DNA of 64,000 nt from Antedon mediterranea (lineage: Eukaryota; Animalia; Echinodermata). Positions within the stretch are counted from its first letter, which is position 1, and every line of letters begins with the position of its first letter. The DNA is taken from assembly GCF_964355755.1 (NCBI RefSeq), contig NC_092679.1:17219432-17283431 (forward strand), in the 5' to 3' direction. Made by a program: the position numbers and the translations under genes. This document shows, one piece after another, positions 3,554-38,300 of this stretch. The notes under the pieces were generated by a model. It was not told the DNA's origin. It made no database searches and saw only the letters and a program-made list of their open reading frames with translations.

Positions 3554-6500
3554 CTAATTATATTGATTTATTTCCAGTGTTAAACTTTGTTTTTCTTTTG
3601 AAAGAATTAGGTCTTTCAAGTTAATAGCCTTCGATCCTATAAGTCTCTCCTTCGCCGACCCATCATTTAAAACCACCTTAAACGCAATAGAGTTCAACGT
3701 ATTAATATCAGAAAAACGAAACTTCTCCATAAATCGCACAGTCCATCCCTCGATCTTTCGTCGGGTGTAAGCCCGCTGGTTCCTTTCTGGCATCACCACA
3801 AGATGGACACGTACGTTAGATTTTCCCCCTGTTCTTCTATCTCTTGTCGTCAATCCATGCATCGATTTTAAAATCACGTATAGCCTTGAAGATTCAGACT
3901 TATAATCGAAGTCTAAATTTAACTTAACACTTGACATGTTATCCTGAAATAGACAAATATGTAAAATAATTAGACAGACATCTACTCAACACAAAATCCT
4001 CTGAAATCCTTCAATCGCATAATTCTGGGAGATTTCAAATTAGAATGTATATTCCTTTATACAAAACAAAATTGATTATTAATATTGCTTGAAGTGAAAG
4101 TGTATGGTAATAAGTATACAAATACTCACGTTATAACTTCCATTGCCGAATTCCATCATTTCAGACTCGTGCGTTCTTTCGTTGCTTGTTATAGTAGGCC
4201 AGTTTCTTCTCGATAAACTTCTGGACGATTCCATTCTACTGGATGAATTTGACATTGAATTTAGCGAGCTTGTTGACGATCCAAGTTTACTGGATCTGTT
4301 GACGGCTTGTGACGACCTGTACCTTGTAAAAGACCCCGATCCTCTATTGGACTCTGCCGATGACGAATAACTTGACAAGTTCCCTGTACTTGCGTACTTC
4401 CTTCCATTCCGATCGGCACCAGACAATCCTCGTGGTCTTGTTGATGACCTTGGTTCTCTCGTACTCCAGTGCCTCATTGAAGACCTCTCTAGACTTCCAT
4501 CTGACGGAATAGACCAGTGCGTACCTTCTGTATCAGCGCGACTGCCGCCATTCCTGGTCATTCTGGCAGCAGTATCGATGGCAGAATCTTCTCCGCCATA
4601 TGAGTACAGTCCGCCAGTCTTCTTGCTGTTTCCATCATATGATCCGCCTGTGGCATACTCGATCGGTGTTCCAGTCCACGGATATATTGGAACGCCGCTT
4701 TGGTAACTTATGCTACTGAGCCGTCGTCCGTCCAATGATGTTCCCCTGTAATCCACGACACCAGAATCAAAGCTGTTAAGACTACTGAAATCTTGATGTG
4801 ATTGGAACGTTGGTGTTTGTGACTGACTACGTTCTTCGTACGATCTTCTATCGTAAGGCAATGACCATAGTTTTGACTCGCTTAAAATACTGAAATTACT
4901 CTCTGATGCCGATTCTCCGGCTTCGTAACCATTTTCGGGTATCGGATCCTTAGACTCCTTTGAATCACTTAGTTTAAATAGCCGTGATAAACTCTTTCCA
5001 AACTTCGTAAGTAGTCCCTTTTCATTCTTCTTCTCCTCTTTTTTACCAGTTCCATCTTTACTTTTAAACGCTTTAACTTCTTCGTCTTTCTTGACTACAG
5101 GTATAACCTTCTTAGAGTATAAATTAACGTGTGCAAATTCATCAGAATCGTAGGACGTTTGAGAAATAGGCCTGGTGCCATCATTTGACCTTTCTACTCG
5201 CCCCCAACTACTAGTTGGTTTAATGTTTTCTTTTGATACCTGTGATCTTGCCACTGCGTCACTCTTTGTACCATGTGATCTGTGGTCCTCTGCACCTTAA
5301 TGAAATAAAAGTAAAATTTCTATTATATTTTTATTTTGTTCACACTACACGTAACCTTTATTTAATTTTACATATATTGGCCTATGCATTTGTATATAAA
5401 TTTTGTAATCTTTTTAACATAACATAATTTTATTTTTTTAACTGATTTTTTCAAATTTCTTAATGTTTTGTATAAATTTTTGTATTTTTTTAAATGTTTC
5501 TGTTTCCATATATTTATATATATATTTTTGTAAATCAACAATTTCAGCCTTCGGGCTGCATGTTTTTATTGTATAAACCTGAATAAATAAATAAAAATAA
5601 ATAAAGTAACATAGGCCATATTACATTTCGTTTAACACCCTTTTAGTGAAGCTATGCTATACACTATCAACATTGATGTGACAAAAAAATGTGATGTGCC
5701 CATATTATGTACATGATGATGTCATATCACTACCATATTTGGGCGTATCACTACCATATTTGGGCGTATCACTACTGTATTTGGGCGGTCACACCATACT
5801 TCACATCACATCATACTAGTTTGATAGTGTAGACATAAAATTAAATGTTAATATATCTAATTTTTCTATAGAAACTCATGTTTTTATGACGGAAGTTATT
5901 TTTGCAATAACAGGCTGTACATGATATTATATTAACTACTCTATTTTAGCCTGTTGGATTAGTTTTAAAAGGCATACTAAACGACGTATTATGGTCTGTT
6001 GCTGTTCCTTTGTACAGTACGGCTTTTCCTAAACACAATTTAGCAGAGATAACAAAAGAGATATCTCAGAGCTATTATTAACTGATTTCTATACTGTACT
6101 TACTGAAAAGTCGTGACGACTATTTTTACCACGTAACTAATTAGCTTTAATTTACTGCTTATGTGCTGTAAAATAGCAGCCTAGGGCTGCCGACAAATTA
6201 ATATGTTTAACGTTCAATTCTAATTGTATAAAGACATTATTTATTAATATTAATACCATAGGTTTTACACCACAATTTGTCTACATATACTAATAGTATA
6301 CTATAGTATTCAAAGTCTAATTTTCATCGGAAACAATTCTGATACTACAGATTATAATATATGCCTTCCGTTTCTGTCGGGCCATCCTCTTTTGTATAAT
6401 AAATAATTGGTTTTTACTAACAAATAACAGTGCATTGGCTATACTTACCATTCCAAGGTAAATATGGTGGATCTTCTTCATTTTCTGAGTTGTCTTTTAT

Positions 6501-6620
6501 CGGTTTGTCTTTTGTCGTCTGCTTCTTTTCGTCAAAGACCTTCTTTTGTAGAAGTTGATCGGCTGGTATATCGAGGAGCATAGCCGACTCTCGACAATTT
6601 TTAAAACACACGAGGCTCAT
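3554..6620 (-). CDS. SYT14/16-derived single-C2 protein, paralog 1 (exons 6620..6449, 5295..4130, 3943..3554; 575 aa): Cys-containing N-terminus, long Ser-rich linker, one C2A-like domain
   Basis: GT/AG junctions in phase 1 and phase 0 give an open 1728-nt frame. The last exon (VKLNLDFDYKSESSRLYV...RTGGKSNVRVHLVVMPERNQRAYTR...FMEKFRFSDI) aligns by eye with the C2A exon at 25391..25804. Confidence 0.75.
5650..5837. mobile_element. Harbinger-derived MITE (family H1), degenerate copy
   Basis: Shares CTACACTATCAAA-like termini and the TGTGACAAAAAAATGTGATGTGCCCATAT subterminal block with the right end of the element at 11869..16419. Confidence 0.7.
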
Positions 6621-8346: not shown

Positions 8347-8541
8347 ATTGCTACTTCCGCCAGAATTGCGAGAGGTTATGTGATCGATCTCGTGTGTTTG
8401 TGTTTCTTTCTTTCTATATGTTAGTTAGCAGGATTACTCAAAAAGTTATATGCCTGATTTTAAAGGAGGGTTTTATGGGAACAAGTTTTTAAATGTTCAT
8501 GCATGAGCGACGATCTGCGCGCTCTGAGTGCGCTTCTAGTT
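8347..8541 (+). mobile_element. Short non-autonomous Helentron/Helitron-type element remnant
   Basis: 5' ACTTCCGCCA...GAGGTTATG, internal GTTAGCAGGATTACTCAAAAAG, 3' hairpin GCGCGCTCTGAGTGCGC followed by CTAGTT. This layout resembles Helentron-associated short repeats (recognised from memory). Confidence 0.5.
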
Positions 8542-9203
8542 TAATTTATGTCTTAATTCATTAAACTTTAATCATTGTCTGTATCTAAAGCTAAATGTTT
8601 GGAGCAAACGTTAGTGTATTGAATTGATCTTGAATGGTTTTTTTTTTTTCGTTTAATAGTAGATTAAAGATTGATCTTGCTTTGGTCGTTTTTTTTTTAC
8701 TTTGTTAATGGCGGGCTACTTACTATTGAATGTAAATTGAAATAAATAAGTGCTTACAGCAAGTGAGACATGCCATGCTGTAGGCCTACGAATGTTCTAC
8801 TGAATAACTAATAAGTTTTCAGAATGAAAAGAAAAAGATTATAGTCAACCTCAAACTAATGTCAGGGGTTATGACTTAAAAAGTAGTCCTTGACTTTTAA
8901 ACAGTGACAAGTTCAGAATGCAACTTAGTATGAATAAAAACTCAGTAACCGAACCATAATCACGATTGTGCAGTGCTTCAGTAATTTTGTAGAGAAATTT
9001 GCATGAGCCATTGTTTAAATTGTAAAGAAAGTATTAGGCAGCTAGAAACCATGTCGTAAAGAATAAAGAGATTTAACAATCGCACAACGTTCGATGACGG
9101 GGTCAATGAGACTTATTTGAGATTTACGAAATAGTTTCGTATAAGTAGAGGTTGTTGAGATTCGGTAAACTTTTATTCAGTATAACATTTGTAGGCCTAC
9201 AGC

Positions 9204-12200
9204 ATGGCATGTCTCACTTGCTGTAAGCACTTCCCACTAGGTTTCGAAGGTTTGTCCATATTTGGTAAGAAATCAACAACGGTGCGTAAACGAGCTGCTA
9301 GGCCTAGATCTGATGATTCTGATTCAGATGGTACCGAAATTAACTTAGAAAGTTGGATAGTGGAACCACCGTTTGAGCTTGATAATCCGGCATTGTTAAA
9401 AGACGAAGACGAGGAGGAGAAGGTGTCAATCGCTACCAGTAAAGATTCAGGTCATTTTGAAGGCACGGTAGACCCGGTTACAGAGGCTACCACATCCTTT
9501 GCAGAGGACGCGTCAGGTAATCGTAATGTTTTACTTTTTAAGAGACATTTGATATTTTAGACGGTTTAGGACTATACAAATAATACTTTCGTCTTATTCA
9601 GAAAGAAAACGGCATATACCTTAGGATAGGGGCGCGCGTACACACCCCCTTTTGACAGCTAAAATAAAATTAGATATAAATCTATATTTGACAGACTATC
9701 AATATTGAATTGTAAGCTCCCGTTTAAAAATCCTGGATCCGCCTCCGTGTATTACGCACGGCCGGGGCTATAATACTTTCAACTTGACGCTAAAACAGTT
9801 TTAACCACATTGTGCTAAGCCTAATTGTTTCTTATAAAAACAAAACAACCTTCTTATGCCTATATTTCCAATAAATATTTAAGACAATAGTACGTTTTGC
9901 AGTCCTAGAAATGAACAACAATCACGTGCGATGAGACACGACAGGCCTACGTACTAAACATTTAAGAGAAAGTTATATTTCGTTGTTCTGAACAAAATTG
10001 AACTTAACGTATAGAAGTGACAGCGGAGGCATCTTTCCAATACTGTATTTACCTATAGAGATCTGCTTTCATTAATCCTATACAAATATCTATAGTGATA
10101 TCCTTAAATAAAGTATAATGATATTGAATTATTAATGGATAAACAGCTCGCATTATTGTATCTACGAAAAGAAATATTTGAACTGAATTCATTTGCAAGG
10201 CCATGGTACTTTCTATTAAATAAAAACTATTTGTCTAGTTGGCAGACGGTTCGGCTCAATAAGAGTTTAAATAATAACCGTAAATGCCAGAGCCTCTGCG
10301 GTTCATATCCCGCATTGTTGTTTTTTTCAAATCCAAAAGTCACTTTGAACACAATGACCAAACTTAAGTAATACATGCTGAGTTGACGCAGTATTAACTA
10401 TACTAACGTGAATAAATGAAAAGACGTTTACTGATAAATAAAAACAACAATATTTTCGTTCGATTTATCAGTTTTAGGAATCGTTAAAAAAACATTAAGC
10501 ATAGGCCTATCAAAGCAAACAAACGACCACCTTCTGCGTAAATGTCACCGAACTATCACCAAACTGTAAATGTCACAAGACTATATCACCGAACTGTAAA
10601 TGTCACCAAACTGTAAATGTCACCAAACTGTAAATGTCACCAAACTGTAAATGTCACCAAACTGTAAATATCACCAAACTGTAAATGTCACCAAACTGTA
10701 AATGTCACCAAACTGTAAATGTCACCAAACTGTAAATGTCACCAAACTGTAAATGTCACCAAACTGTAAATGTCACCAAACTGTAAATGCCACCAAACTG
10801 TAAATATCACCAAACTGTAAATGTCACCAAACTGTAAATGTCACCAAACTGTAAATGTCACCAAACTGTAAATATTACCAAACTATATCACCAAACGGTA
10901 AATGTCAAATTCTCACCAAATTATAAACGTCACCACCAAACTTTAAATGTCGCTAAACTGTAAATGTCGCCAACCTATATCCCCAAAATGTAAATGTCAC
11001 CAAACTACATCACCAAACTGTAAATATCACTAAAATCTCACCAATAATTATAAATGTTGCCAAACTTTAAATGTCACCAAACTATATCACCAAACTGTAA
11101 ATGTCACTAAACTGTAAATGTTACCAAACTATATCACCAAACTGTAAATGTTACCAAACTATATCACCAAACTGTAAATGTCACTAAACTGTAAATGTTA
11201 CCAAACTATATCACCAAACTGTAAATGTTACCAAACTATATCACCAAACTGTAAATGTCACTAAATTATATCACCAAACTGTAAATGTCACCAAACTATA
11301 TCACCAAACTGTAAATGTCACTAAATTATATCACCAAACTGTAAATGTCACCAAACTGTAAATGTCACTAAATTATATCACCAAACTGTAAATGTCACCA
11401 AACTACATCACCAAACTGTAAATGTTGCTAAACTGTAAATGTCACTAAATTATATCACCTAACTGTAAATGTCACTAAATTATATCACCTAACTGTAATT
11501 GTCACCAAACTGTAAATGTCACCAAACTGTAAATGTCGCTAAACTGTAAATGTTACCAAACTAAATCACCAAACTGTAAATGTCATTGACTTATATCACC
11601 TAACTGTACCATAAATGTCACCAAACTTTGTCACAAATTTGTAAATATCACCAATCTACTATATGTCCCCAATACAAATTATACTGTCTTTTTGCTCATA
11701 CAATGTTTTTGGTAATTTATTTTTTGTACCACAGCGACTGAAATAGAACCACAAGCAAGACCTCGAAGTGAAACCATTAGCACCAGTACGCCGAGTTCTG
11801 AAATTACCCATAAGCCACCGGTAAGGACCTCTAATCCAATTTTACACTAAAATGAACATTCGTTCTTAAGCTCTGTCTACATCATCAAAATTTATCAAAA
11901 AAGTATCAAATAAAATTTGATGAAACAATATCGTCAAAATACATCAATAATTTGATGCACTTTGATGAAACGTAATTAACAAATCTGATTGGTTGGTATG
12001 ACTTTTAGTGTTTTTTTATTGGTCAAAAGGTGTTTCATAATTTTAAACGTCTACACTATCAAATTTTTTAATATCAAATTTAATCAAATAGTAGAAAGAT
12101 GGAGCAGGAGAAGGTGGCTGCTGTGTGTCTCATTACTGGTATTATGTTAAAAAGAAAGAGAGAGAATGAAGAAAAGAAAAAAGAAAAGAGGATGTGGATT

Positions 12201-15200
12201 AAACCTTGGCTTGCGAGAAGAAATGAATTGGGAGCATGCGAGACACTAATGAGAGAGTTAAGAACGGAAGACAGAAAAGGGTTTGAGAATTATATACGAA
12301 TGGATCACATACTATTTGATCACTTATTGAAACTTGTGGGGCCTACTATTAGTAGGAAGGACACAGTCTTTCGGGAAGCAATCCCAGCACACCATCGTTT
12401 AAGTGTAACTTTGAGGTTCCTGGCCACTGGTAAGTATTAATTTTATTATAAAATAGTAATAATGGCCAATCCTCTACTTCAGTTTAATCTGTTACCTGGC
12501 GTAGTTGCTTCATTGTATAACTTTTAGTACTTTACATTAATATTTTATTTCAGGAGAATCTTACACAAGCTTGGCCTATCAACATCGCATTTCTAAGCAG
12601 TCTATCAGCAAGTTGATACCTGAAGTATGCGAGGCAATATATGACAGCCTAAAAGATGAGTACATGAAGGTAAGCCATCGCTTTCAAAAAAACTGTCAAA
12701 CACATTAAAAAATATCTACTTTCTCAATACTGTATGATAAAGTCATCATGGTAGTACAATAAAACAGAACACCTATAATGTGCAAAAACACTTTATTGAC
12801 GCATTCCATAAAAATAACATTTTTATCAATTTATTGCACTCCACCCTTACCTGTTCTCATTAAATACTTTAAAATAAAATTAATAATTAAGAAGTCGAAT
12901 TTGTTAAAGACACTTTCACTGCAACTTATATTTAAAAACTTATTTAAAAACCTTAAACCAGATCATTTCCTTTACGATATCACACCAAGTGGGTGTATCA
13001 CAGAAGCAAAACAAAGATATCTATCTACGCGCAATGCATGCTTGTATTTATAGCAGACTATTAAAATCAACTTATTTTTCAAATTTTGTAATAGGCTCAT
13101 ATTGTATTTTTTAACAAAAACCCCATATTCTGACAGACAAATTGACTATTTTTTGCTTTAAATTACAGTTTTTTCAGGTAAAACACTTTTTTTGGCCAAA
13201 GGGAATAACTATTATGTAATATTAAAATGGCATGGGGACAATATATCTTTAAAATTAGATTAAAAAAATTTAGTAAAAAGTGTCTTTAATTTATTATATT
13301 AGTCTTCGGATTGACAAATAATTTCCTGAATTTTTAATTTAATTAGGTTAATTTTTTTGCGATCTCCAATTCTCTTAAGTTCAGCGGCCACATAGCTTCC
13401 AAAACGTTCTTCTGGACCATTATTATCAGCTGACAGCAAGACTTGAAGTGATTTATTTATTAGTTCATCATCTTGATTTGACCTTTTTTCTTTTTTGGAT
13501 TTTTTTAATGGAGGGGGAATTGCTGAAACTGGTGGTAGGAGGGACAATTCTGGTAGAGAGGGAAGTTCTGATAGAGGGAGAAATTCTGATAGAGGGGGAA
13601 ATTCTTGTAGAGGGGGAAATTCTTGTAGAGGGGAATCTGAATTAAGTTGTTCCTGGCTTGGCTCTGAGATACATGGGTTCATCTAAAAATAAAATATATT
13701 AATAATAATACATTCTGTATACATTTTAATTTTAATCTTTTTTTAGACTCCATCAACACAAGATGAGTGGAGAAAAGTTTCCAATGACTATTTCCAAAAA
13801 TGGCAGTTTCCCAATTGTATTGGGTCCATCGATGGAAAGCATATCACTATGCAGTGTCCTCCCAAGTCTGGTTCATTCTATTATAATTACAAGGGGACCC
13901 ACTCTATCGTCTTGATGGCATTAGTGGATGCTAACTATAGATTTCTATACATTGATGTTGGATGCAACGGAAGGATAAGTGATGGCGGTGTGCTGCGAAA
14001 TTCAACGCTTTGGCAGGCACTGACATCGGAAAGCAACATGCTAAATATTCCAGAACCTTGCAAGTTGCCAGGATCTGACATAGTAACACCTCATGTCATA
14101 CTTGCCGATGATGCCTTTCCTCTACACAGGAACATCATGAAGCCATACCCTCAAAGAGGATTATCAAGGGAGAAGAGAGCCTACAATTACAGGTTAAGCC
14201 GGGGCCGCCGAGTAGTAGAGAATGTATTTGGACATCTTGCTAACCGATTCAGAATCTTTCACTCTAAAATAATGCTAGTCCCGTCTAATTGCCAGAAGGT
14301 TGTGCTATGCACATGTGTGCTGCACAATTACTTAAGGGCAAATGGGGAGGAAATGTCAGCGGAAGCAGTATCAAAGCTTCAGAACTTAGATAGTCAAGGC
14401 AGCAATAATAGTACATCAATTGCTAAAGATATTAGAGAACAATTTTGTCACTATGTAAATGAAGTGCAACCTCTTCCATGGCAATATAATTGACCATTAA
14501 AAACTTTAAGGACCAATCTTAACCCTCACCTATAAAAAAAAAACAACTTACAGATGATGTTGATTTTCTTGGAGTTACATGATCTGCCAAGAAGGATAGG
14601 CTTGTAAAAAAGGGCCATCTTGATGTGTAGCAATTTAACGACCCACTCCCACTAGTCTTGCTTTCTTTCTCTTTTCTTTTCTCACACCGATAATATGTCC
14701 GCAGTGCGTTGATTTTGTTTTTTACTTCAGTTTCTGTGAATAAAAAAATGTAATAAATGTGGTAAATATGATGTTATAGTAGGCCTACTATTCATTTATT
14801 TATATATTAGCCTAATTATTAATCATTATTCACATTCATATATTTTCCTTCATACAGTACATACATACTAGATTAAACATTTAATAAACAGGGAATAAAC
14901 ATATGGTCTTACCTAGATAATAAAGTTAAGTCCTTACATACTATATAATAATTTATAGGCCCTACTTATACTAACTAGTAACTAGGCTACTTTCTTGGGC
15001 CTAAAAAAAAGAGGCCTACTCTAGCCTAGTAGTTATTAGGTAAAATTAGGCCTAGGCCTACTCTAATTAATTAAAACATAGGCCCTAAGTCCTTACATGT
15101 TAATAATAATTAATAGGCCCTACTTATAGTATATACTAACTAGGCTACTTTCTTAGGCCTAAAAAAAGAGGCCTACTCTAGTAGTCGTTATTTAGAGTGA

Positions 15201-17950
15201 GTAGTAGTTTAGAAGTAGGAGTAGTAGTTATTATAATAATTAAATTAGGCCTAGCCCAGTATAATAAATAACTATAAATATTATTCACTCATATAATCAT
15301 TCCTAGCTAAGCATACCCTATCTAGTTAGGCCTAGGCTAGCCCTAGTAGACCAAGCCTACTATATAGCCTAGTCTAGGCCCTACCGCCGTATTTCTCCTT
15401 GTTAAAAGAGAGTCTCTAACGCGGGGAATACTGTAACTCTGTAAGTAGGGCCTAGCCTACTAAGTAATACTAGGCCCTAGCTAGGCCTAGCCTAGTTTGT
15501 TGGATTCATAATGGAAAAAAAAAATCAATCTAGGCCTAGCCTAGGCCCTAGCCTAGCTAGCCTAGCTAGGCCTCTAGCCTAGGCTAGGCCTATTACTCCT
15601 GATCAGATTAGGCTAGCCTAGGCCTAGTTGGCGAATGGTCCTGGAGGAATTATTTTAAAATATTTTGAAATAATTCCTCCATGCATGGTAATACGTAGGC
15701 TAGCTAGGCCCTAGGCTAGAGAGTATATAGATAGGCGGCCTAGGCCTAGCTAGTGTTCCGCGTGTGGTGTAGCTTGCGAGAGAGGAGGCAATGCGATGCT
15801 TTATCCCACCACCGCCGTCGGAAGAATAAATTGATATGCGTGCAAGGTCGCAGGTCGAACGTCAAGGGTGGTTGACCTATTTATGGGTCGTCGCGGGGCG
15901 GAGCGTACTCTAGGGACGTACGTGTACTTAGTTACGTAACTAATGTATCGAGAGCTAGGGGCTAAGCCTACTATGCGCTATCTGTATAATGACTAAATAA
16001 AATAGTGTTTACCAGGCATTTCCGGATCAAATTGTTTTCCAATTTGTTGGACAGCTTGCTGTCGTTTGACCCTATCATGGTAGGCCCTGCATTTGGTATC
16101 CCACAAACAGGGGGAACCAAATAGCAGGGAAATAAACTTTTCATTTTCTTCGGTTGACAATCGTCGCGAAGACATTTTTTCAAGAAACAAAAATACGGAG
16201 AGAGCGAGCTCGATTTAATAAATTTGATCAAAAAAATAACACACTGTGATTGGTCAATATAAAAATTTGACAACTTTTTGATAGACTACATCAAAAAAAG
16301 TTGAACATGTTCAACTTTTTTTTATACAATTTGATGATGTGTGGTATGATGTCATCATATCCATATATGGGCACATCAAATTTTTTTGTCACATAAAGTT
16401 TGATGATGTAGACAGAGCTTTACAGCTGATAATGAACTTTGCATCCTCTAACGACGTTTCACCATTTATTACAGGAACCAGAAATTGTTGGAGACTTGGA
16501 AATCAAACTTGCGTATAAAGAGAAAAAGAAACGCTTAAGTGTTGCAATAATAAAGGCCACTGGTTTGCCAGCAAAAGAACATGGAGGTGCACTGGGTGTG
16601 AGGATCCAGATAGCTCTCCTACCAGATAAACTACAGCGGGGAAAGACAAGGATACGCCTGGGACAAGACGTTTTATTCAACGAAGTGTTCCGCTTCACTA
16701 ACTTGACGCCGGCGATGTTGCAGACGTACGCGTTACGGTTTAGGTTATTCGGAAAAGACAAATCCCGTCAGCAGCTTAGGATCATTGGAGAGAAGGTTTT
16801 TGATTTATCTTGCATCGACAAAGATTTGGCCTCACAGCTAATGTGTTTGAAATTAAATGCAAAGAGTGCTATTGTAAGTATATATGTCAGTCTGCCGTAT
16901 CTTTATCTTATAAATCAATTGTATAAGCTTGGTTCCCATGGCACGACGCAAGGAAGTAAGCGCTACGCAAGAAATTTTACTTGATTTGACCAATCCCGAC
17001 ACGATGAATCATCTGGACTGTCGCTTGTTATTGGTGAACTCACTTCTTACGCGTAATCACTTATGCTATTATACGTTTAAAAGCTTGGTTCCCACTAGAG
17101 ACGCAACGCAAACGCAAGGACGTAAACGCAACGCAAGTGAATTTACCAATCACAAGCGATGGCTTATTCGGGTTTGATTGCCAATTGTCTATGTCTATAA
17201 CTTCGCTTGTCATTGGTTAAAACGCTTGCGTTGCGTTTACGTCCTTGCGTTACGTTCTAGTGGGAACCAAGTTTTAAGCGTGGTTTCCAATAGAACGCAA
17301 CGCAACGTAACGCACCGACGTATCGACGCAAAGTGTTGTATTGCGTAATCACAAGTTGGAACCGACGATGCAATAGTGCTGCAAACATCGAAGGTTTGAT
17401 TTCACGCAGGCGGGGGCAAACACAATGATTGAAAGGGCATTTTCTAACGTTGCGTAGGTTGCGTTACGTTACGTCGCTTGGTTTCCACTAGAACGTAACG
17501 CAAGGACGTAGACGCAACGCAAGCGAGGTGACCAATGACAAGCGACAGTTAGAATAACCCATCGCTTGTGATTGGTCAAATTCTCACGTTGCGTTACGTC
17601 GTTATGGTGCGTCTCTAGTGGGAACCTCGCATAAAGAGCTTGGTTCAATTCCCACTAGATTTGATCAATCACAAGCGATGGATTATTCAGTCACTTGTCA
17701 TTGGTCAACTCGCTTGCGTTGCGTCTACGTCATTGTCGTCACATTATTTTCTCTTTTACAGTCTGAACCAGTTCATCCATCGAGAAGATCCTTCTTTAAG
17801 AAGAGAACAGGTTCATTGGATAATGATAACTCATCGTTGAAGATCAATAAAGATCCACGAAAGGCGCGCAAGTTGAGTACAGAGACGATTAAAACAACCG
17901 GGCAAGTAGCAAGTTTGGTGGGCAATAATTTCGGAAAGGGTGTGTTATAA
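9204..17950 (+). CDS. SYT14/16-derived single-C2 protein, paralog 2 (exons 9204..9516, 11735..11820, 16475..16873, 17762..17950; 328 aa)
   Basis: All junctions are GT/AG (phases 1, 0, 0) and the 987-nt frame is open. N-terminus MACLTCC. The C2 exon VGDLEIKLAY...GLPAKEHGGALGVRIQIALLPDKLQRGKTRIR...FNEVFRFT...LRFRLFG closely resembles the C2A exon of the SYT14-like gene. Confidence 0.8.
9628..9746. mobile_element. Small GC-tipped MITE remnant
   Basis: AGGGGCGCG...CCCCC at the left end and AAAAATCCTGGATCCGCCTC at the right end; imperfect terminal inverted repeat. Confidence 0.35.
10538..11655. repeat. Minisatellite of 17-bp unit TCACCAAACTGTAAATG, interspersed with a 13-bp variant TCACCAAACTATA
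   Basis: Direct reading; about 1.1 kb in intron 1 of paralog 2. Confidence 0.95.
12099..14493 (+). CDS. Harbinger (HARBI1-like) DDE transposase (exons 12099..12429, 12554..12669, 13747..14493; 397 aa)
   Basis: GT/AG junctions (phases 1, 0) and an open frame. HTH-like region RLSVTLRFLATGESYTSLAYQHRISKQSIS. Catalytic motifs GSIDGKH, LADDAFPL and RRVVENVFG. Confidence 0.93.
13299..16175 (-). CDS. Harbinger accessory MADF/Myb-SANT-like DNA-binding protein with BESS-like C-terminus (exons 16175..16013, 14733..14552, 13682..13299; 242 aa)
   Basis: GT/AG junctions (phases 1, 0) and an open 729-nt frame. MADF hallmarks PCLWD..Y.DR.KR, VKNKINALRTYY..E and SRWPFFTSLSFL. C-terminal EERFGSYVAAELKRI...IKLKIQEII. 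Confidence 0.88.
14950..15760. repeat. (T)AGGCCTA/CTAG-rich low-complexity region with a ~140-bp direct duplication, in intron 1 of the MADF gene
   Basis: Dense TAGGCCTAG/GCTAG motifs; about 14927..15030 recurs at about 15085..15185. Confidence 0.7.
16926..17735. mobile_element. Cluster of 4-5 tandem or nested MITEs (family H2; TIR AGCTTGGTTCCCACTAG) in intron 3 of paralog 2
   Basis: Complete copy at 17082..17273, followed by TTA and a new copy starting at 17277. Partial copies at 16926 and 17637. ACGCA repeats and CCAATCACAAGCGA core. Confidence 0.85.
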
Positions 17951-18345: not shown

Positions 18346-19060
18346 ATTATATACCAATAGGCAGATTATAAACAATACGGTGAATAATATCTTAGATGAT
18401 ATCTTAATAACGAGTTTTAATTTGTCAGATCATGGAGAAATCAGTTAGATTGCCATACCTGCATATTGAACGGTAGAAAACTTATTACTGTACCGTATAC
18501 AAACTATTGAATATAGACCTACTTGACGTAGTATCAATTACAACAATGTATTGCTTATTAGTGTGCACTCAATATCATTAATTCAATATAAATATGTTAT
18601 ACATTAATGTTATTATTTATGTACATTACAATGAATGGCCGAATAGACAATCGAAGTACATTGTTATAGTACATAAACTAAATTTCATAGCGCGTGTTTC
18701 TACGAGCAGGAGAATACGGATTTAAAATACCGTATAAAAAAAACCATGTTTTCTTAATCTTGCCAGCAGAACGACCGATTTTAAAATACGGGTTTAAAAC
18801 CCTCCAATGTTAAACTGCAACGCGATCTTTTTATGAAAACGGTTTGGAAGAAAACTTCTTTCCAATTTTTTCAGCAGAACAGCTGGCCTATAAAACTCAG
18901 AGGGGTTGGTGAATGAAAGAGGTAGAGCTATAATTTAAGTATTTGAGTGGGGAGGGTGGTTGCCAGATCACGCGATGATCAAGATGGCTAAATTCACAGA
19001 TAGCGCGCGAACGATCTTGAATTGTTTACCGATCTGGTGTTAATGGTGGATGAGAGAGGT

Positions 19061-19098
19061 GGGGGGGGGGGGGGGGGGAAGAGGGGGGGGGGGGGTGG
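19061..19098. repeat. Poly-G tract
   Basis: Two long G runs separated by AAGA. Confidence 0.85.
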
Positions 19099-20738
19099 AG
19101 ATTGACATCTTTGATATGTATATAATAACCAATATGATCTTCAAATTTCTCATAGCTATTTAATTATCTAAGTTGTGTAATTTTATAATGGCCAGCTAGA
19201 ATAAAATTATAAATTGTATATATTATTATAAGAATAGAAAAAATCTAAATTGCGAATTATAGCCTTCGGTGTAAAAGGAATTCACAGAAATATTTTATTT
19301 ATATTATCCAGATATTATTCTCAAACTTGCCCTGTTTTTGATATGTGTTATGTGCTTTTATACAGTATGGCATTATCTTATAAATGTTTTTTAGAATTAT
19401 TAGATTGTAAATCTGTTACATTTATCGCCGATATTAAAGGTCGTCTATATCAACCTTCATTTACGGTAACTGGTAATTCGACAGGAACACAAAAATAACA
19501 TGATTTTTAAAATATAGTACAAGAAGGGGCAGTATTTAACATGTTAAAATAGTGTAAACGTATTGTATTTATATTATAGTTTTTATACGGTGTCCCACCA
19601 AATTAAAAACCACGATTTTAAAGATGGTATTTAATTTGATGGAAACCTGTATCGATAAATTCAGGTTAGGCCTATACTATTTTTTTTTGTGATATCAATT
19701 TAATGATGATACAATTTCAATTTATTCTTAATTTTGTATTTTACTTTTGATAAGTCGAATATAAGCAAAAATATATATTGTACATATCAAGGTTGAATTT
19801 GCAAATTTGTTAACAAACCTATCGGTATAAAATAAAGACCCGGATGGTAAAAATTACATTCATTCATTCATTCATTCATATACACATTTATTCAGTTATT
19901 ATATGACAACAACAACTGGGGCCCTCATTGATATATGAATGTTCTTCTTGAAGTCTGTTAAAAAGAAATTGTTAAATTAATTTATTAATCTTGAGAATTA
20001 TAATATTATTACATTAAATGATTATTTCAGATTAACTTCACTCTTCAATATTATAATAAGTGAAGAAAAAATCTCACTCCGATCACACGCCCTCACCACA
20101 CCAACAACTTACGCGTCACAATTTTCTCGGCTTTGCTATATCGATAAAACACGGCTGCGGGTTAAAATCCTTTAGGGAATTATTTGTTAAACCGAGCATT
20201 AGAGTATAATGATGACATTAACATCGTATTCCTCCAATATGTACTATATTATAGCCAAGATCTTTGCTTTTAGTACATGATTCATTCACACTATCGAGAA
20301 AATGGGAAGTAGGCCTCCAGTCTGATTCGAACGATTTACACAATCAATGCGTTACCGATAATCCCTTTGAAATGTGTTAAAAATCAATGTATTTATTCGA
20401 ATTTACTTTAGTTAGGTTTTAGCTTGTTGTCGGCTGGCCAATCGATAATTGAAGAACTACACCCATATTAAGCTTTTTGCTAGCAATTTGAATTTGAAGG
20501 GAAATTGTATGGAAAACCGCGCTCCGTCTAGGAGGATCAAAATAGTGACCGCAATTGAAATTGAATACTAAAACTAACAGGGATACAAAGATCGTTCCCA
20601 ATCAATCAAACTATATCGGTTCAAACATAAATATTCGCAGTAACAATTAAAATACACAATGCAAACAAAGACAGTTATATTTCCCAATAAAAGTTATGAA
20701 CAAAATGATGGTATTCGAGCGTCAGTCTGAAGACTAAA

Positions 20739-20859
20739 AGCTCCGTCTCAAACTAGTTTGACAAAAAGTGTGATGTGCCTAAATGTGGTAGTGATATGTC
20801 CATATATGGGCACATCACATTTGTTGTCACATAAAGTTTGATAGTCACTACACAGAGGT
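20739..20859. mobile_element. Harbinger-derived MITE (family H1), internally deleted
   Basis: AGCTCCGTCT...CATATATGGGCACATCACATTTGTTGTCACATAAAGTTTGATAG matches the right end of the autonomous element. Confidence 0.75.
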
Positions 20860-21237
20860 TTGGAATCATGTCCGCCACGACACCACTACTTGCAGAGTTT
20901 GAATCCATATTAAATGTAGGCCTATGGCGATAGTGATCTCAGCTCATTATAACTTTACAATCATTTGTGACAATCCTATCCCCCTGGAGAGATAAATAAT
21001 TTCAGATCAAACATCGCATCCTCATAAGAATCCATAACACCGTACATACCGTATGTAGTTATAATAATTTAATAAATCGCCACATATTACAAGTTAGAAA
21101 CTGCATATACATATTCAGTGTATTATTATTAATACAGTCATTAATGATACATACTATCTTACTGTACACAGTGAAGCTGTATGTATGAGGCACCTGAATA
21201 AAAAGGAAACGTGGGCTTTGATATAACTACCTTATTA

Positions 21238-21383
21238 AGCCTTGTCTACACTTTCAAAAAAATGTGATATGCCCATATATAGACATGATGTCATACCACG
21301 ACCATATTTGGGTATATCACTACCATATTTGGGTACATCACACTTTTTTTTTGTCAAACTAGTTTGATAGTGTAGACAGAGCT
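21238..21383. mobile_element. Harbinger-derived MITE (family H1) with TTA TSD
   Basis: TTA|AGCCTTGTCTACACT...TTTGATAGTGTAGACAGAGCT|TTA. Confidence 0.85.
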
Positions 21384-21504
21384 TTAGGAAGTACAGTAAC
21401 TGGAAGGTTAACCCTTAAAATATTCACCAATATAATATTACAAAATTCCGTAAGCCAAATTTACTTGAATATTTCTTAACTAGTTTGATTAACTCTTCCC
21501 TGTC

Positions 21505-21675
21505 TATGCTTGGTGGTTGAGATGCTCGGCTACCAAACCCAAAGTCCTGAGTCCAACTCTTGTCAGACGTCAGAACTGTTTGTTCAACCACAAAAGACTA
21601 TTTAAGACTTTCTTTCATCTTGTAATTTGCCACCTTTAATAAGGAGTCAAAAAAAAGCAAATAAATATTAAAAAC
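21505..21675 (+). mobile_element. Degenerate tRNA-derived SINE
   Basis: Head GCTTGGTGGTTGAGATGCTCGGCTACCAAACCCAAAGTCCTGAGTCCAACTC parallels the head at 23818; A-rich tail. Confidence 0.4.
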
Positions 21676-23010
21676 TTTGATTGTAACTCGTTGAATTTAT
21701 GCAAAAAAAACAAACAAATTCTAATTTTAAAATCTATACCTTAAAATCTTTTTAACCAAAACATTATCTACTAACCCAAATATTGACTTTGAATTGAAAG
21801 ATAAAACTTTTTAAAACACTTTTTACAAAACTAAATGAATGTAAAATATAAAGAATATGTATAAAACAATTTTTGGTATAGAATAAACACAAATACAAGT
21901 AATAAAAATAAGTTTAAATATGTAAATAAATTTCTAAATGGTATTTAGAAAACAATGATTTTATAAGTTCCGGGTAAAATATTTTCAAACCATTATATCT
22001 TTCTACGTTATTATATTAATCAATAAATATTTTTGTACAAATTTATAAATACATTTTTAAAAACTGTTTGATCCTATCCATGGTATTAACCAAAAGCTTT
22101 AGTAATTTACTCTAAATTTCTGTTAATACACAAAATGTGTCTGTAACAACTAAACACACATCTTCGCATGATGGTAATAGACGTATATGATTGGTTGCTT
22201 ACAAGCTCCTCAAAACGCTTGTAAAAAACATACCTACTTGCAGTGCTCGTGTAGAAACAACGAAGAGTCCGATGAGCTAGAAGACTTTAAAACAAACCTA
22301 CTGTAAAGCTGCAGTTACTACACACAACGATGAAACAAGTTTCGGAATTGTCAAAAATTTCCCCATTAACGATTGACCGTGATTTTACCGTGTCAGAGAA
22401 AAAGGACACAAAATTATTAAATCCGACCAATCCTTTGCATGTACAATTTGGTTAAAGTCGGATCTTGTGCAAGTACACAACGATGACAATTTTTTATTTT
22501 TTTTTTCCGAACGCTGGCAATGTGCGCGTTTACGTATTTATAAATACGTCAATTTATATGATTGAGGATTGGAAAAAATAAATCATAAAATTTTCAACCG
22601 ACATGCACAACCTGGCTATGTTTATATTGTTAGGTTGTGTGTTCTCATAAACTTACTACTTGCTGTGCATGTAGCAGTAAGTGCTCAACTTATTCCTCAA
22701 TTACTCTCCATCTCAAATTTGTTAAAATATTGGTACACAAACAAATACGAACATTTCCCAATTCTTATACTACAAAACAAAAACAAAATACTGCCTATAT
22801 GAAGAAGGGTGGGAATAGGAAATTGATTTGATAAACTTTCACCTTTGACCTCAAGTGTTAAGTAACAGTTATTGGGTATGAACTATGACCTTCACCATCA
22901 AAGGGTAAAGTATGTTATGGATATTTTAAAGCACATTTTTGGTTGTAGCACATGGCCTTTGAACTTATGGTTCAAGGACACGTTAACTGCATACTTGATG
23001 ACCTTTGACC

Positions 23011-23324
23011 TTATGGTTCAAGAAGGGCGTGCCACCTGCACACTTGATGACCTTTAGAGTCTCGCATCTCATTCCAATGTGCCAACTCTTCCTCGCTGCT
23101 ATTCTGCAGACCCATTGAGAACCAGCCTAAAGTCTCTTTACGCTTCATTGCACGTTTGTTGAAGACTGTGTAGAGTAACGTGACGTCAGGAAGCTGAAAT
23201 TGAGCCACTTGAAAGATGAACGTCTCTTTGAATGTCGGGTTAGGCTGGCCTCGTCGTATCGACGTCTTGCTCTTGGTCATCTCAAACCCACTCGACGACA
23301 TCAGTGACACACGCACATACGAAT
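23011..23324 (-). CDS. SYT14: SYT14-like last exon (C2B, C-terminal part)
   Basis: Acceptor AG at 23326-23325, phase 1; (D)SYVRVSL...HALLEP stop. Confidence 0.93.
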
Positions 23325-26300
23325 CTTAATATAATAAACAGTTTACAGTTTAATTGTATATAAAATTGATTGGATTGGAACTTAAAACTATAAAGAATAC
23401 GCCTACCAATTTAAAAAACAAAAAAAGACTTATCTAAGTGAAAGGCTCTCAATTTCTTTATGATACATACTGTGACATATTACAGTACCATGTGCTACCC
23501 TTCTACCCAGCATATTTCATTTAATAATCACTTAAAATATCACTTTGTGACCAACATGTGACTTAAAACGCCTATATTTCACTAACAAACTTCAAGTACA
23601 AAGTACAACACATACTTAAATTAAATATGTCGTACTTACTATTCTAAGTTATTGAAGATTAATAAATAAACCATCAAACATTGTTCGATGACGACAAAGG
23701 GAGTCAGACAACAAAGAGGTAAATAATGCAGTTATTTTAATAGCATTATGAGATGGCAATAATAGTTACACAAATTAACTGGCAATATGAATCAGGCATT
23801 TATGCATAAAAGTAGTGTAGAGGTAGCGTGGTGGTTAACATGCTTGCCTTCCAATCCCAAGGTCCAGGGTTCAATCCTGACCTATTGGTCTTTTAACTCC
23901 ACTTCTTAAGCCTCAAATGAGACTTATTCTATAAGCATGATAAACTATAAAATAGTTTATCCATCCTTTAATTAGCGAGTTTGTGCTCGCTGTTGGATGA
24001 GTATGAAATAAAAACTAAATAATTAAAAAAAAACTTACACAAATTAAAAACATTGTTGTAAAAATTTTAAAAATATTTACCTGGTGCACGGCCTGCAGCC
24101 AAATTCTTGAAATGGCTGCCTTTGAGAATTTCAACTGATAATCGGCCAGTCGTTGAGTTATAAGAAAGTCCGACTAAAAGTTCCGGCATACCGCCATGTT
24201 GCAACGACTGCAATGACGAGTTGCTTTCACTGTGTGATAGATCTGATGAACTAGAATATGGCGATGATGAACCACTCTGTATAAGAATAAAATGTTGAAT
24301 TTTACAGAAGGAAAGTAGAATATGAAATAACAAATAAGTAAATTATACCCGATTAACGCACACAACAAAAAATGTAACTTTTACATATATATTTCCTAAT
24401 TTTATCCAGTTATAATAACATATACACAATTCAAACAAGTAAAATGTAAATGCTGTTAAAACACGTACATTAGAACAATATGTACATATGTGCAGATATG
24501 GCTGAGCTACCGTACCTCGAATAGCTTGTTCACATATGCACAGATATGGCTGAGCTACCTCGAATAGCTTGTTCACATATGTGCAGATATGACTGAGCTA
24601 CCTCAAATAGCTTGTTCACATATGCGCAGATATGACTGAGCTACCTCGAATAGCTTGTTCACATATGCACAGATATGGTTGAGCTACCTCGAATAGCTTG
24701 TTCACATATGTGCAGATATGACTGAGCTACCTCAAATAGCTTGTTCACATATGCACAGATATGGCTGAGCTACCTCGAATAGCTTGTTCACATATGTGCA
24801 GATATGACTAAGCTACCTCGAATAGCTTGTTCACATATGCGCAGATATGACTGAGCTACCTCGAATAGCTTGTTCACATATGCGCAGATATGACTAAGCT
24901 ACCTCGAATAGCTTGTTCACATATGCGCAGATATGACTGAGCTACCTCGAATAGCTTGTTCACATATGCGCAGATATGACTGAGCTACCTTGAATAGCTT
25001 GTTCACATATGCGCAGATATGACTGAGCTACCTCGAATAGCTTGTTCACATATGCGCAGATATGACTAAGCTACCTCGAATAGCTTGTTCACATATGCGC
25101 AGATATGACTGAGCTACCTTGAATAGCTTGTTCACATATGCGCAGATATGACTGAGCTACCTCGAATAGCTTGTTCACATATGCGCAGATATGACTGAGC
25201 TACCTTGAATAGCTTGTTCACATATGCGCAGATATGACTGAGCTACCTTGAATAGCTTGTTCAGAGATTTTACATTGAGGTAACACAGAAAAGCTTTCAC
25301 ACATTTGTACCAAGTAAAAGATTTTTGTATGTGAATTTGGTATACGCTGTATTAACTAACTGCTATAATGTTCGCCTTGATTTTACTTACAGTATCGCTC
25401 CTGGCCAGGATTGGTATTGTAATTGTCTGCGTCGTTGTTGTATTGGTATTTAGAGACGAGAACTTTGTCACACATTCGCCAATTAACTGTTCCTTTCGCA
25501 TTTTCTCGGTCCCGAATAACCGAAACCTCATTGATGTGCTTGCTAATTCATGCGGAAAGAGGCGTGTGAAGCGAAATAGTTCTTTGAATTCTGGATTCTC
25601 ACCCTCGCGAATCCTTGTCTTTGCCCTTTGTCTCTTACTGGGCATGAGTGCCAAACGGACACGACAGCTTCCTGGGCCTCCTCGATCTTTAGAGGGTACG
25701 TCTGAAACTTTAACGACTGTGATATTCATCCTGCGTGCCTCTCCACTGTATGAGAATGCAACTTCCAATTTTCCGACTGTTGGTGGGGGTTCTCGAGGTT
25801 TTACCTGTCAAAAATTATATACAAGTCATTAATTATTCCATATTTTATAACTCCTAATGCTAGTGTTAGTGTAATAATAGCAAAAAAGTTTACTCTTTTA
25901 CTATGGTAATAAAAAAACAGTAATTATCATATCATATACCATATTTGGACGTATCCACAAATTGGGCTAAGCTTAGTTTTTAACCAAAATGATATAATTG
26001 GTATAAACTCACTTTGAGATACAAACACCTTATATGGATCTGGAGTGTTTTTTTGTGCTCTATTGGTCCTTGTTAAAGTGTGCGCCCTCTATTGTTGTGG
26101 TATTTGTACACTTATATGCAAATTATGCTTGTACACTACTGTATAATGCCAATCACGTAAAACGGCATTGAAAGGGACATTGTGGTCGAAGGCGGTGTTA
26201 TGTGCGAGGCCTTACAATTTATTATCAGTGTTTCCAGGATATGTATTGTAGTATCATACGTTATTGAAAGAATAAACCCTGCATAAAAATTAAGCCTTCG

Positions 26301-35300: not shown

Positions 35301-38300
35301 AATATATTAATACAGTAGTATGCATTGTGTATAAATAACCTATTTCCGAGAATAATAACAATACTGTTAATTAAACATTGTTGTTGTTGTTATGTTAGTA
35401 TATAATTGCCATTTATAGTTCAGATATTAAATAGTGCATCTCAAATGGGGTTGGTGACATGTTCCTAACCACCAAACCATAGGCCTTTACAAAACAATTT
35501 ACAAAATAAAATAATCATTTTCCTTCCTAAAAAAACTTTGAAACCATCGTAAAACTATCTAATACATCATTTGAAAAAAAAACCCACAAAAAATAATTTC
35601 CATTACAACAATCAATGCAATGGATTTAGATTTCACAGTAAATTTGAACTACATGCTTCTTCCTTGTCCAAGACAGTGGCTGTGTGAACTAATACACCCC
35701 GAGGTAACTCTCTACTTGTCTTGTAAGATGTACTACTGTAGGTTCCTTTTGAATACACAATATTATCTGGGATGTATAACTCTAAAATTATGATAGATAC
35801 AAATCAATCATATAGTGGTCACCATATTATTTATTGCTGATCTACTGATCTAGTTAAAGATAGTATGAAGATATTATATTGACTTGTGATATAAAAAATG
35901 ACATAATAAAAGTCAAGTCTATTTCCAGAATAGAATAATCTATTGAAAGAAAGAATGACTATCTAAAGAAATAATTCACATATTTATAAATTCTAAAATA
36001 AACCACTTCATATTTGAAAGGGTCAAATTAACAATGGCATAATTATCTATAAAACTAGATAAAAGTATTATGATTCAAAAAGTATATAAAGATTGTGGTA
36101 TTAATTTTACTACTTAAATAGGCTGTTTGGCCATGAACTGGAAGGAACCGCAAGCCACATCGGGTAATCATGTTTTGAAAGTCTGATTTTTCCCCATAAA
36201 AGTCGACAGTTGGTAATCTTGTCAGACACACAATCAGTCATTCCTGGTCAAATCCATCAGTACTAATACCAGTCGCTGTCCAATCATTGAAACTTCAAAA
36301 GAATCCCTCCTTTTCAAACTAGATGCCAGCAGCATAAAGTTATACTAGTAGTTATAAATTGTGGTTACGATACAAGCTTACTTCACTTAAGAAAGTGACC
36401 CGTGGTAGTTCATGAAACCTTGGTTTAAGTTTTATAATACAACATTTTGATAAAAAAGACCTAGATTCCGCAACTGGGTTCATACAGCATGTAAAAAATT
36501 AATATAGTAGTTTTAGTCTTTGGGCTAGTTTACTGTATTTTATGGCAATATGCATAATAAACAATCATATATTTATATTTCAAATACGGTAATAATAAAG
36601 ATGATTGACAGCGATGACCATGCTGTACTAGCTTTAATAAACACTAAGTGTACTGGTAGGCTAAGCCAATATGCTAAAACAAGTATAACACATTAAAAGC
36701 CCCAATGGTGAGTGACTCATAATCACATAACAAAAACATATAATTGAAAATGACATACATAGATTTTGTTCATTCCGTATTCTCACGCAAAGTTCGGGCC
36801 TACCGAGTTATGGTTTTGTATCATACACAACAATATACAACTGAACTAGGAAGAGATTAGTGGAAGCCACCATTTACGACACTGACCTTTTGTTTGTTAC
36901 GAAATCTATGGGTACAAAATTAATGTATATTGCTTATGATATGAAAGTCATACACCAACAATTTTGCCCACCTCATCCCCCTCCCGCAACTACTGTTCTG
37001 CGAAACATCAATAAAAATAAACGTTAATCAAGTTGAACACTTTGCAGTTACGATACTAAACGTGAACTGGTTTACGATACAAAAGCGTAACAATCTATCT
37101 GAACATACTTTATTCTAAAAACAACAAACTGACAGCAAATCTTTTAAGGACATCATTAATACTCATAAATCATAAAATCAATAAACAATCCAGATATATT
37201 GTGTTTTACCTCTGTATACATATCCTGACCTCTCCGAACTTGTCCACGTACTACTACAAATTGACGAATCATCAGAATAATTAAAAGCAAAGCCAGCTAG
37301 TCCTGCGTGATTTTGAAGAAATGATGGATTGTTTTGTAGTCCTGTTTTACTACTGGCACTTATATACTCGTCCTGTTGTTCGTCCAAAATGTTATTTACC
37401 TCTTCGGCGGTATTCACGTTAACAGAACCATTTGCCTTCGTTTCATTTGATTTCCAAAAGGTGAAAATTCCAAAGCCAGGCTGTCCAAAACTAAAATTTG
37501 CACAACAACTCAAGCAACCCATGCTTTTAAGCTAACTATTCACACACAAATGAAAGAATCAGTGAATCGAGTTAAAGTCAATATGCAAATACTAGCAGGT
37601 CACATAAATTGACCTTGAATGAATTCAACCATTGTAAAGTTGAGAAAACTAAAAGCCTGTGGTATATGGCTTTTAACTGAGATAATATGGGTTTATGAAA
37701 TGTACAGAAACGAGCTTAAATTTGAGATTATGTTCTAATTATCAACTCAAAAGTTCATAATCATAAAACTAGATTTTCTAAACCTAGAAACTCAATTCAT
37801 AATAAAACACTATCTGATAATGTCCGTATACATAACAGACTCAATTATTGATACCACTAATGTTCAATATAAAACTCATGAGAAGGAAGTCTTGATTTAA
37901 CGTTTTGATCTCTTCCTTTCAACCATTATAAATATGAACTGAAAATTATTGACAAATGAGGTCTATGATTTAAACAAATCTGGTGTTTTTTAATTATATA
38001 AAAATCCTTTTTTTCTTGATCAAATATATTATTCTGTTAAATATTTTTAAGGTGTTTCATAAGGACCAAAGTAGAAATATGTTTGGCAGGGTTATAGAGT
38101 TACTCTAAAACTAACCACGACACTCAGAAAGTGTTTTCCATTTATTTAAACATTATTATTTGATAAAATATTTGTAGAAATTAAAATGATTTCAATTTGA
38201 AAACATTCTAAAACATTTAATTTTGTTCATTAAAAAGCAATTAAAAAGTAAATATACGGTTGAATTGCATTCAAATTTCTTCAAAATATCAAATTTGTTT

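What the first reader, a model, noticed from the sequence alone, without database searches (positions are those of the whole stretch)
9204..17950. Paralog 2 looks like isoform A frozen into a separate gene that lost C2B
Seen: its exon 1 has exactly the same coding length (313 nt) and phase as exon A, with a similar start (MACLTCCKHFPLGFEGLSIF vs MGCLSCCANFSFGQPGFGIF; later LDNPALL vs LQNNPSFL). The exon phases then match the parent (1-0 linker exon, 0-0 C2A exon). The fourth exon ends in a basic 62-aa tail instead of C2B. It lies inverted, tail-to-tail with the parent gene. Inference: an inverted partial duplication captured the innermost promoter. This also independently supports exon A being real.
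Basis: partly seen in the sequence, partly recalled or inferred. Interest (0 to 1): 0.7.

Follow-up and report, generated by a model that had tools for sequence, protein, structure and literature searches.

The report
C2A-only Syt16 copy in feather stars
This is a real four-exon gene kept in two feather-star families, likely a cut-down, flipped copy of the neighbouring synaptotagmin-16 gene that took one cysteine-rich start exon and one C2 domain with it and is predicted to attach to membranes by lipid anchors without sensing calcium; the copying process is a known kind.

Summary
Real gene; reading mostly right, with corrections. The four exons translate to a 328-aa protein identical to an uncharacterized Antedon mediterranea model; an Anneissia japonica ortholog is 74% identical, tail included, so it is not a pseudogene. 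Its C2 is a Syt14/16 C2A: the best non-ortholog among 1.84 billion proteins is the neighbouring parent, and it falls in the echinoderm Syt16 clade in 3 of 4 trees. Exon 1 matches exon A only in residues 2-22 (9 of 21 in register; 1 of 82 after), so the equal 313-nt length and the 'LDNPALL' match are likely coincidence. A DSG motif ties exon 1 to the same first-exon class in urchins, starfish and brittle stars. New: the basic tail lines up gap-free with the parent's linker/C2B-start exon (13 of 61, best of 392 offsets), so it is likely a decayed piece of C2B, not a replacement. A brittle star has a C2A-only gene of the same build. The parent still has exon A, so this is a copy, not a partition. 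Promoter capture, timing and function are untested. Interest moderate-low.

The parts
9204..9516 (+). Paralog 2 exon 1 (coding, 313 nt, phase 0-1): Cys3/Cys6/Cys7 start, acidic linker, DSGHFE motif at residue 81
   Evidence: NCBI model identical; X1 contig covers 9203-9516 and goes on with 27 letters that do not fit the intron
11735..11820 (+). Paralog 2 exon 2 (linker, 86 nt, phase 1-0)
   Evidence: 18 of 31 columns identical in Anneissia
16475..16873 (+). Paralog 2 exon 3: C2A domain (399 nt, 0-0), acidic residue at 2 of 5 calcium-ligand positions
   Evidence: Pfam C2 E=2e-9; pLDDT 90-98 over residues 141-260; alignment; 81% identical in Anneissia
17762..17950 (+). Paralog 2 exon 4: basic 62-aa tail, likely a decayed homolog of parent exon 24276-24081
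   Evidence: 78% identical in Anneissia; gap-free register test; low pLDDT
10556..11585 (.). 17-bp tandem array in intron 1
11869..16419 (.). Harbinger-type DNA transposon in intron 2: terminal inverted repeats, TTA flanks, open 397-aa transposase (+), MADF gene (-)
   Evidence: spliced joint 13682-14552 in X1
8748..8825 (-). Mirror copy of 9160-9232, including the start codon and first 29 coding bases of paralog 2 (42 bases identical)
   Evidence: both copies also in DNA contigs
37210..37522 (-). Parent Syt14/16 exon A, innermost alternative first exon (313 nt, 0-1), Met-Gly-Cys start
   Evidence: NCBI isoform X5 XP_071963786.1
34254..34375 (-). Parent common linker exon (122 nt, 1-0)
25391..25804 (-). 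Parent C2A exon (414 nt, 0-0)
24081..24276 (-). Parent exon for the C2A-C2B linker and the start of C2B (196 nt, 0-1)
23011..23324 (-). Parent last exon (rest of C2B); no second copy in the window
3554..6620 (-). Paralog 1: coding exons 6620-6449 (0-1), 5295-4130 (1-0), 3943-3554 (C2A, stop); 575 aa; head-to-head with paralog 2
   Evidence: spliced X1 contig 6801-6447 / 5293-4129 / 3942-3385; open frame; Pfam C2

Best explanation
Paralog 2 is a conserved four-exon gene for a protein with one C2A domain and no transmembrane segment, which likely arose as a local, inverted copy of the neighbouring Syt14/16 gene from its innermost first exon onwards, likely kept the next exon as a decayed basic tail, and is predicted to sit on membranes through acylated N-terminal cysteines without binding calcium. 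Shown: exon structure, conservation in two crinoid families, Syt16-C2A as closest relative, N-terminal match to exon A, absence of the last C2B exon and of the other first exons nearby. Inferred: the duplication event and its ends; the tail's origin; the membrane anchor (by analogy with Syt17; Ala2 rules out the myristoylation that exon A's Met-Gly-Cys start would allow, from recalled rules); calcium independence (2 of 5 ligand positions acidic, as in the parent); a role as a peripheral-membrane modulator of vesicle traffic, helped by the basic tail. The C2A ran through a long period of fast change (stem 1.3-2.0 changes per column) and then settled under constraint (0.2 between the two crinoids, against 0.03 for the parent), which fits a new role rather than a backup copy.
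For: NCBI model identical to my four-exon translation. Ortholog 74% identical, on a contig of the same length (386,798) as the Anneissia parent. Best non-ortholog among 1,835,955,588 representatives is the parent, E=1e-24. Inside the echinoderm Syt16 clade at 99/100, 100/99 and 100/100; a tree with ambulacrarian Syt16 monophyletic without it is rejected, p-AU 0.0175. Same intron position and phase after C2A. Residues 2-22 match exon A. D[SE]G[HYFL] occurs in 8 of 10 peptides of this first-exon class and 0 of 18 other first-exon peptides (pattern chosen after seeing the data). Tail: 13 of 61 identities at offset 0 with the parent's next exon, best of 392 offsets, shuffle p about 7e-4, mostly at positions conserved across Syt14/16. 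C2A folds with high confidence like synaptotagmin C2A.
Against: Exon similarity stops after residue 22 and the linker exon shows none. Exon A itself lacks the DSG motif (has RSG). The 24-row tree did not resolve the echinoderm clade, and the AU test did not reject joining paralog 2 to the Syt1/4/7 outgroups (p=0.229). Grouping with the crinoid parent has only 80/60 support. Tail homology fails other tests: global BLOSUM p=0.11 and 0.15, local p=0.59 and 0.85, local profile p=0.28-0.95, DNA p=0.16, and the Antedon tail needs one inserted residue set aside (5 of 61 without). No DNA similarity upstream of the two start codons. Junctions 2 and 3 were not among the rows shown. Acylation, calcium independence and function are untested.
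Confidence: 0.68

Rival explanations
1. One old duplication in the echinoderm stem gave a C2A-only gene that survives in crinoids (paralogs 1 and 2) and brittle stars; it came from the ancestral first-exon class, not from the crinoid exon A as such.
For: Amphiura XP_072030374.1 has the same build (Cys start, DSG motif, one C2A) and the same longest-contig length (80,523,477) as Amphiura Syt16. One tree joins it to paralog 2 at 87/60. Echinoderm Syt16 monophyly without paralog 2 is not rejected (p=0.375).
Against: The tool warned that long branches meet at that join. Each N-terminus is closest to its own lineage's isoform: paralog 2 to exon A (50, 32), the Amphiura gene to Amphiura isoform X6 (27); cross scores -2 and 8. 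The 3' ends differ. No urchin, starfish or holothurian counterpart was recognised among the 150 rows listed, of which I read 54.
Confidence: 0.35
2. The whole gene was duplicated, and the copy later lost its upstream first exons and its last exon; no promoter was captured by a partial duplication.
For: The copy is old (long stem branch), so lost exons would have decayed beyond detection; the tail shows that at least one exon past C2A came along.
Against: No remnant of other first exons or of the last exon near paralog 2; only 2.4 kb separate it from paralog 1's first exon; the parent spans more than 30 kb.
Confidence: 0.25
3. Exon 1 is a new exon, and its likeness to exon A is convergence on a cysteine-rich lipid-anchor start.
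For: Likeness is confined to 22 residues; the parent has at least three other cysteine-rich first-exon candidates.
Against: 6 of the 9 identities are not cysteines; the other cysteine-rich exons score at most 12; the DSG motif is shared with the same class in three other echinoderm classes; same phase.
Confidence: 0.1
4. Paralog 2 is a decaying pseudogene or a chance exon chain.
For: It evolves faster than the parent (C2A 81% against 97% between the same species); intron 2 carries a transposon.
Against: Open frame over four exons in two families, 74% identity including the disordered tail; confident C2 fold; X1 contig ends at the exon 1 donor.
Confidence: 0.02

Closest known systems
Syt14/Syt16 (invertebrate Syt16 of Craxton 2010, PMC2823689, passages seen)
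   Same: C2A sequence, intron positions, lack of calcium ligands; that paper already reports Syt16 variants with other N-termini and no TM domain in S. purpuratus and Ciona.
   Different: Separate gene, one C2 only, and it is C2B that is missing, the part that paper calls the most widely conserved.
Syt17 (B/K protein; PMC10404969, passage seen)
   Same: No TM domain; cysteines near the N-terminus, which in Syt17 are fatty-acylated and anchor it to membranes.
   Different: Syt17 has two C2 domains (recalled) and is another subfamily; acylation is only predicted here.
Single-C2 synaptotagmins and Rph3a fission (Syt18, Nematostella Syts, Rph3al/Doc2b; PMC2823689, passages seen)
   Same: Duplication with loss of domains, kept as linked genes.
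   Different: Syt18 single-domain forms keep C2B; here C2A is kept with a recycled tail.
Splice-form subfunctionalization after duplication (PMC4417111, abstract and start of introduction seen)
   Same: A duplicate fixes one isoform's exon structure.
   Different: No partition: the parent still carries an intact exon A.
Amphiura filiformis XP_072030374.1 (uncharacterized)
   Same: Cys start like its own Syt16 isoform, DSG motif, single Syt16-type C2A.
   Different: No long tail; orthology unresolved.

Membership tests
Syt14/16 subfamily (by descent) | C2A closest to Syt14/16 C2A | tested here: met
   caveat: AU test against outgroup placement inconclusive
Syt14/16 subfamily (by descent) | Shared intron positions and phases around C2A | tested here: met
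Syt14/16 subfamily (by descent) | Calcium-ligand aspartates not conserved | tested here: met
   acidic residue at 2 of 5 positions against a Syt1-like row (ligand positions recalled); PMC8164606 states this for SYT14
Canonical synaptotagmin | Tandem C2A and C2B | tested here: not met
   one C2; no second copy of the last C2B exon in the window
Canonical synaptotagmin | N-terminal transmembrane segment | tested here: not met
   no helix or hydrophobic stretch in residues 1-133
Syt17-like acylated Syt (works like) | N-terminal cysteines conserved | tested here: met
   Cys3 and Cys6 in both crinoids; Cys7 only in Antedon
Syt17-like acylated Syt (works like) | Cysteines are acylated and needed for membrane binding | not testable with these tools
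   needs acyl-exchange assay and mutants
Splice-form subfunctionalization | Duplicate carries one isoform's first exon | tested here: met
Splice-form subfunctionalization | Reciprocal loss of that isoform in the other copy | tested here: not met
   exon A intact and annotated
Promoter capture | Homologous upstream DNA or shared expression pattern | tested here: inconclusive
   no DNA similarity at E<1e-4; too old to expect any; expression not testable with contigs
Pseudogene | Broken frame or neutral divergence | tested here: not met
   dN/dS itself not computed, no ortholog DNA available

The most novel reading that the evidence does not exclude
Echinoderms have repeatedly and independently spun off C2A-only mini-synaptotagmins from the same innermost, lipid-anchored first exon of Syt16 (twice in crinoids, once in brittle stars), and the crinoid copy turned the stump of its broken C2B into a conserved basic tail: a recurring route to a calcium-blind, one-domain regulator of membrane traffic.
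Probability: 0.3. Interest if true: 0.55.

Novelty: new variant of a known kind. Interest (0 to 1): 0.36.

Why it matters
Syt14/16 is among the least understood synaptotagmin groups (PMC8164606 says little is known of its function). A naturally C2B-less version, held under selection in two crinoid families and mirrored in a brittle star, suggests that the C2A plus a lipid anchor has a job of its own, and gives a ready-made construct for testing it. It is also a clear case of a first-exon isoform becoming a gene and of a structured exon being recycled as a disordered tail. The process is known and the gene is lineage-limited, so the weight is modest.

Tried and rejected
No whole genome is held for this window. 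No RNA holder listed on record for exon 3 (5 runs, 0 on record as RNA; X1 is a guess, share 0.90); this says nothing on expression. Idea that the mirror copy at 8748-8825 is paralog 1's first exon: its phase would fit, but the spliced X1 contig uses 6801-6447 and a low-depth contig runs unspliced through 8507-8777; not supported, not excluded as a minor form. Equal exon length and the later motif match as evidence of homology: rejected. Linker exon homology by sequence: none. Paralog 1's start against exon A: no match (score -6; best 21 and 19 with urchin and Amphiura starts, and 19 with an unrelated class). hhalign of the tail failed on a formatting error and was not repeated. Timing tests were all inconclusive: p-AU 0.235, 0.077, 0.375, 0.267, 0.177. 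No Anneissia exon A was found (1 hit among 37 candidates; weak search). The other NCBI isoform of paralog 2 implied by the label X2 was not retrieved. Earlier scan findings: none. Paper searches listed no title or abstract start on such a paralog; I saw listings only, and did not open the supplements of PMC2823689, whose invertebrate Syt16 alignment may bear on this.

Full report
Setting. The window is animal DNA with a synaptotagmin-14/16-like gene on the minus strand and two single-C2 paralogs beside it. No genome is held. The four exons at 9204-9516, 11735-11820, 16475-16873 and 17762-17950 have canonical splice sites and give an open 328-aa frame. A search with exon 3 returned 2 proteins among 313 candidates: XP_071962273.1 of Antedon mediterranea, identical to my translation, and XP_033100344.1 of Anneissia japonica. 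These are different families of Comatulida. NCBI models are computed predictions whose evidence I did not see.

The observation. Lengths, phases and orientation are as stated. Exon A is the innermost credible first exon and is the start of NCBI isoform X5. Residues 2-22 of exon 1 and exon A share 9 of 21 positions in register (shuffle mean 2.1, p=2e-5); residues 23-104 share 1 of 82. Exon A's best non-self tblastn hit in the window is the start of paralog 2 (E=0.002). Among 8 Antedon parent first-exon peptides, exon A scores 50 and the others at most 12. The Anneissia ortholog has gaps in this region, so the shared 313 nt is most likely chance. The later motif match is out of register and lies in the non-significant part.

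Is it a working gene? Identity between the two crinoids is 62% in exon 1, 58% in exon 2, 81% in C2A and 78% in the tail; the parent shows 74%, 84%, 97% and 98% for isoform X1. So it is constrained but faster. The predicted C2A has pLDDT 90-98 and the rest is low-confidence; the fold matches synaptotagmin C2A domains. Run X1 is only guessed to be RNA, but it holds an intron-free contig of paralog 1 where DNA runs X2 and X3 run through the introns, and a contig that covers 9203-9516 and continues with 27 letters that do not fit the intron. The other two junctions were not visible. dN/dS could not be computed. Three differences in exon 1 in X2/X3 are 2 silent and 1 conservative, too few to weigh.

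Where the C2 comes from. Among 1.84 billion representatives the best non-ortholog is the parent next door (E=1e-24), followed by other echinoderm Syt16 proteins. Trees on 132 columns put paralog 2 in the echinoderm Syt16 clade at 99/100 (45 rows), 100/99 (22 rows) and 100/100 (20 rows). A 24-row tree left this open; there the AU test rejected ambulacrarian Syt16 without paralog 2 (p=0.0175) but did not reject joining it to the Syt1/4/7-like outgroups (p=0.229). The smaller sets left out paralog 1, most protostome, vertebrate and cnidarian rows, and in two cases the outgroups. Whether the duplication is crinoid-only or older is unresolved. Labels such as Syt1-like and ophiuroid on unnamed rows are my own.

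The first-exon class. Echinoderm Syt16 genes have many alternative starts, as PMC2823689 noted for S. purpuratus (passages seen). One class begins with cysteines in the first seven residues and carries D[SE]G[HYFL] further on: 8 of 10 peptides I assigned to it (both paralog 2 copies, two urchin, two starfish, two brittle-star; not exon A, which has RSG, nor paralog 1), against 0 of 18 others. The pattern was chosen after seeing the data and the 8 are about four or five independent lineages. Paralog 2 thus kept a motif that exon A appears to have changed.

The tail. Laid without gaps from the splice acceptor, the Anneissia tail matches the parent's next exon (C2A-C2B linker and start of C2B) at 13 of 61 positions, the best of 392 offsets along the parent; shuffle p is 7e-4, and 1.5e-3 without serines; a position profile gives z 2.3 and 2.6. 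The Antedon tail does the same once one inserted residue is set aside, and gives 5 of 61 otherwise. Ordinary global and local alignments, a local profile search and a DNA test are not significant, and I devised the register test after noticing the match. I put the homology at about 0.75.

A parallel case. Amphiura XP_072030374.1 is a 310-aa protein with a cysteine start closest to Amphiura Syt16 isoform X6, the DSG motif and one Syt16-type C2A; its record has the same longest-contig length as Amphiura Syt16. Adjacency was not testable. Paralog 1 in this window has the same exon plan (0-1, 1-0, C2A with stop).

How it likely works. No transmembrane segment; Cys3 and Cys6 are conserved. By analogy with Syt17, which is anchored by acylated N-terminal cysteines (PMC10404969, passage seen), it would bind membranes through S-acylation. 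Ala2 excludes myristoylation, which exon A's Gly2 would allow (recalled rule). Only 2 of 5 calcium-ligand positions are acidic, as in the parent (positions recalled), and SYT14 is described as lacking them (PMC8164606, passages seen). The basic C2A (25 K/R, 14 D/E) and tail would add calcium-independent binding to acidic lipids. All of this is inference.

Comparison and verdict. By descent a Syt14/16 member; not a canonical synaptotagmin (no TM, no C2B). Single-C2 and TM-less Syts, and duplication with fission, are known (PMC2823689); fixing an isoform in a duplicate is known (PMC4417111, abstract), though here the parent kept exon A. Searches listed nothing on this paralog (listings only; supplements not read). 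A new variant of a known kind; interest 0.36.

Noticed in passing
window 8748-8825 and 9160-9232: Inverted repeat (88% over 78 bases, 42 identical) that copies paralog 2's start codon onto the minus strand, facing paralog 1, with a phase-1 donor-like site at coding base 19. Present in DNA contigs; no splice seen.
   Followed up: partly
window 6620-3554 (-): Paralog 1: 575-aa single-C2A gene with a 1166-nt Ser/Arg-rich middle exon, spliced in X1; 7 of 10 listed coding differences are silent. No ortholog search was left for it.
   Followed up: partly
window 11869-16419: Apparently intact Harbinger transposon in intron 2, transposase on the same strand as paralog 2, MADF gene spliced in X1. Whether the unretrieved other isoform of paralog 2 splices into it is untested.
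   Followed up: partly
window 40056-44849 (-): Three more cysteine-rich candidate first exons of the parent (starts 44849, 42713, 40596 or 40470), all with phase-1 donors, none among the five NCBI isoforms retrieved.
   Followed up: partly
window 46592 and 54094-52480 (-): First exon of isoform X1 and the transmembrane-coding exons of isoforms X2-X4.
   Followed up: yes
window 18360-23324: X1 contigs cover much of the stretch between the two stop codons, so long or overlapping 3' UTRs are possible; contigs give no strand.
   Followed up: no
window 26068-33195: Pao/BEL LTR retrotransposon in the parent's intron, 2040-aa open frame, LTRs 99.6% identical, so a recent insertion.
   Followed up: no
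window 931-1599 (+): Last exon of a TMEM26-like gene, tail-to-tail with paralog 1.
   Followed up: no
P0146 (XP_072030374.1) and unnamed P0222: C2A-only Syt16 derivative in a brittle star, and a 57% identical unnamed fragment.
   Followed up: partly
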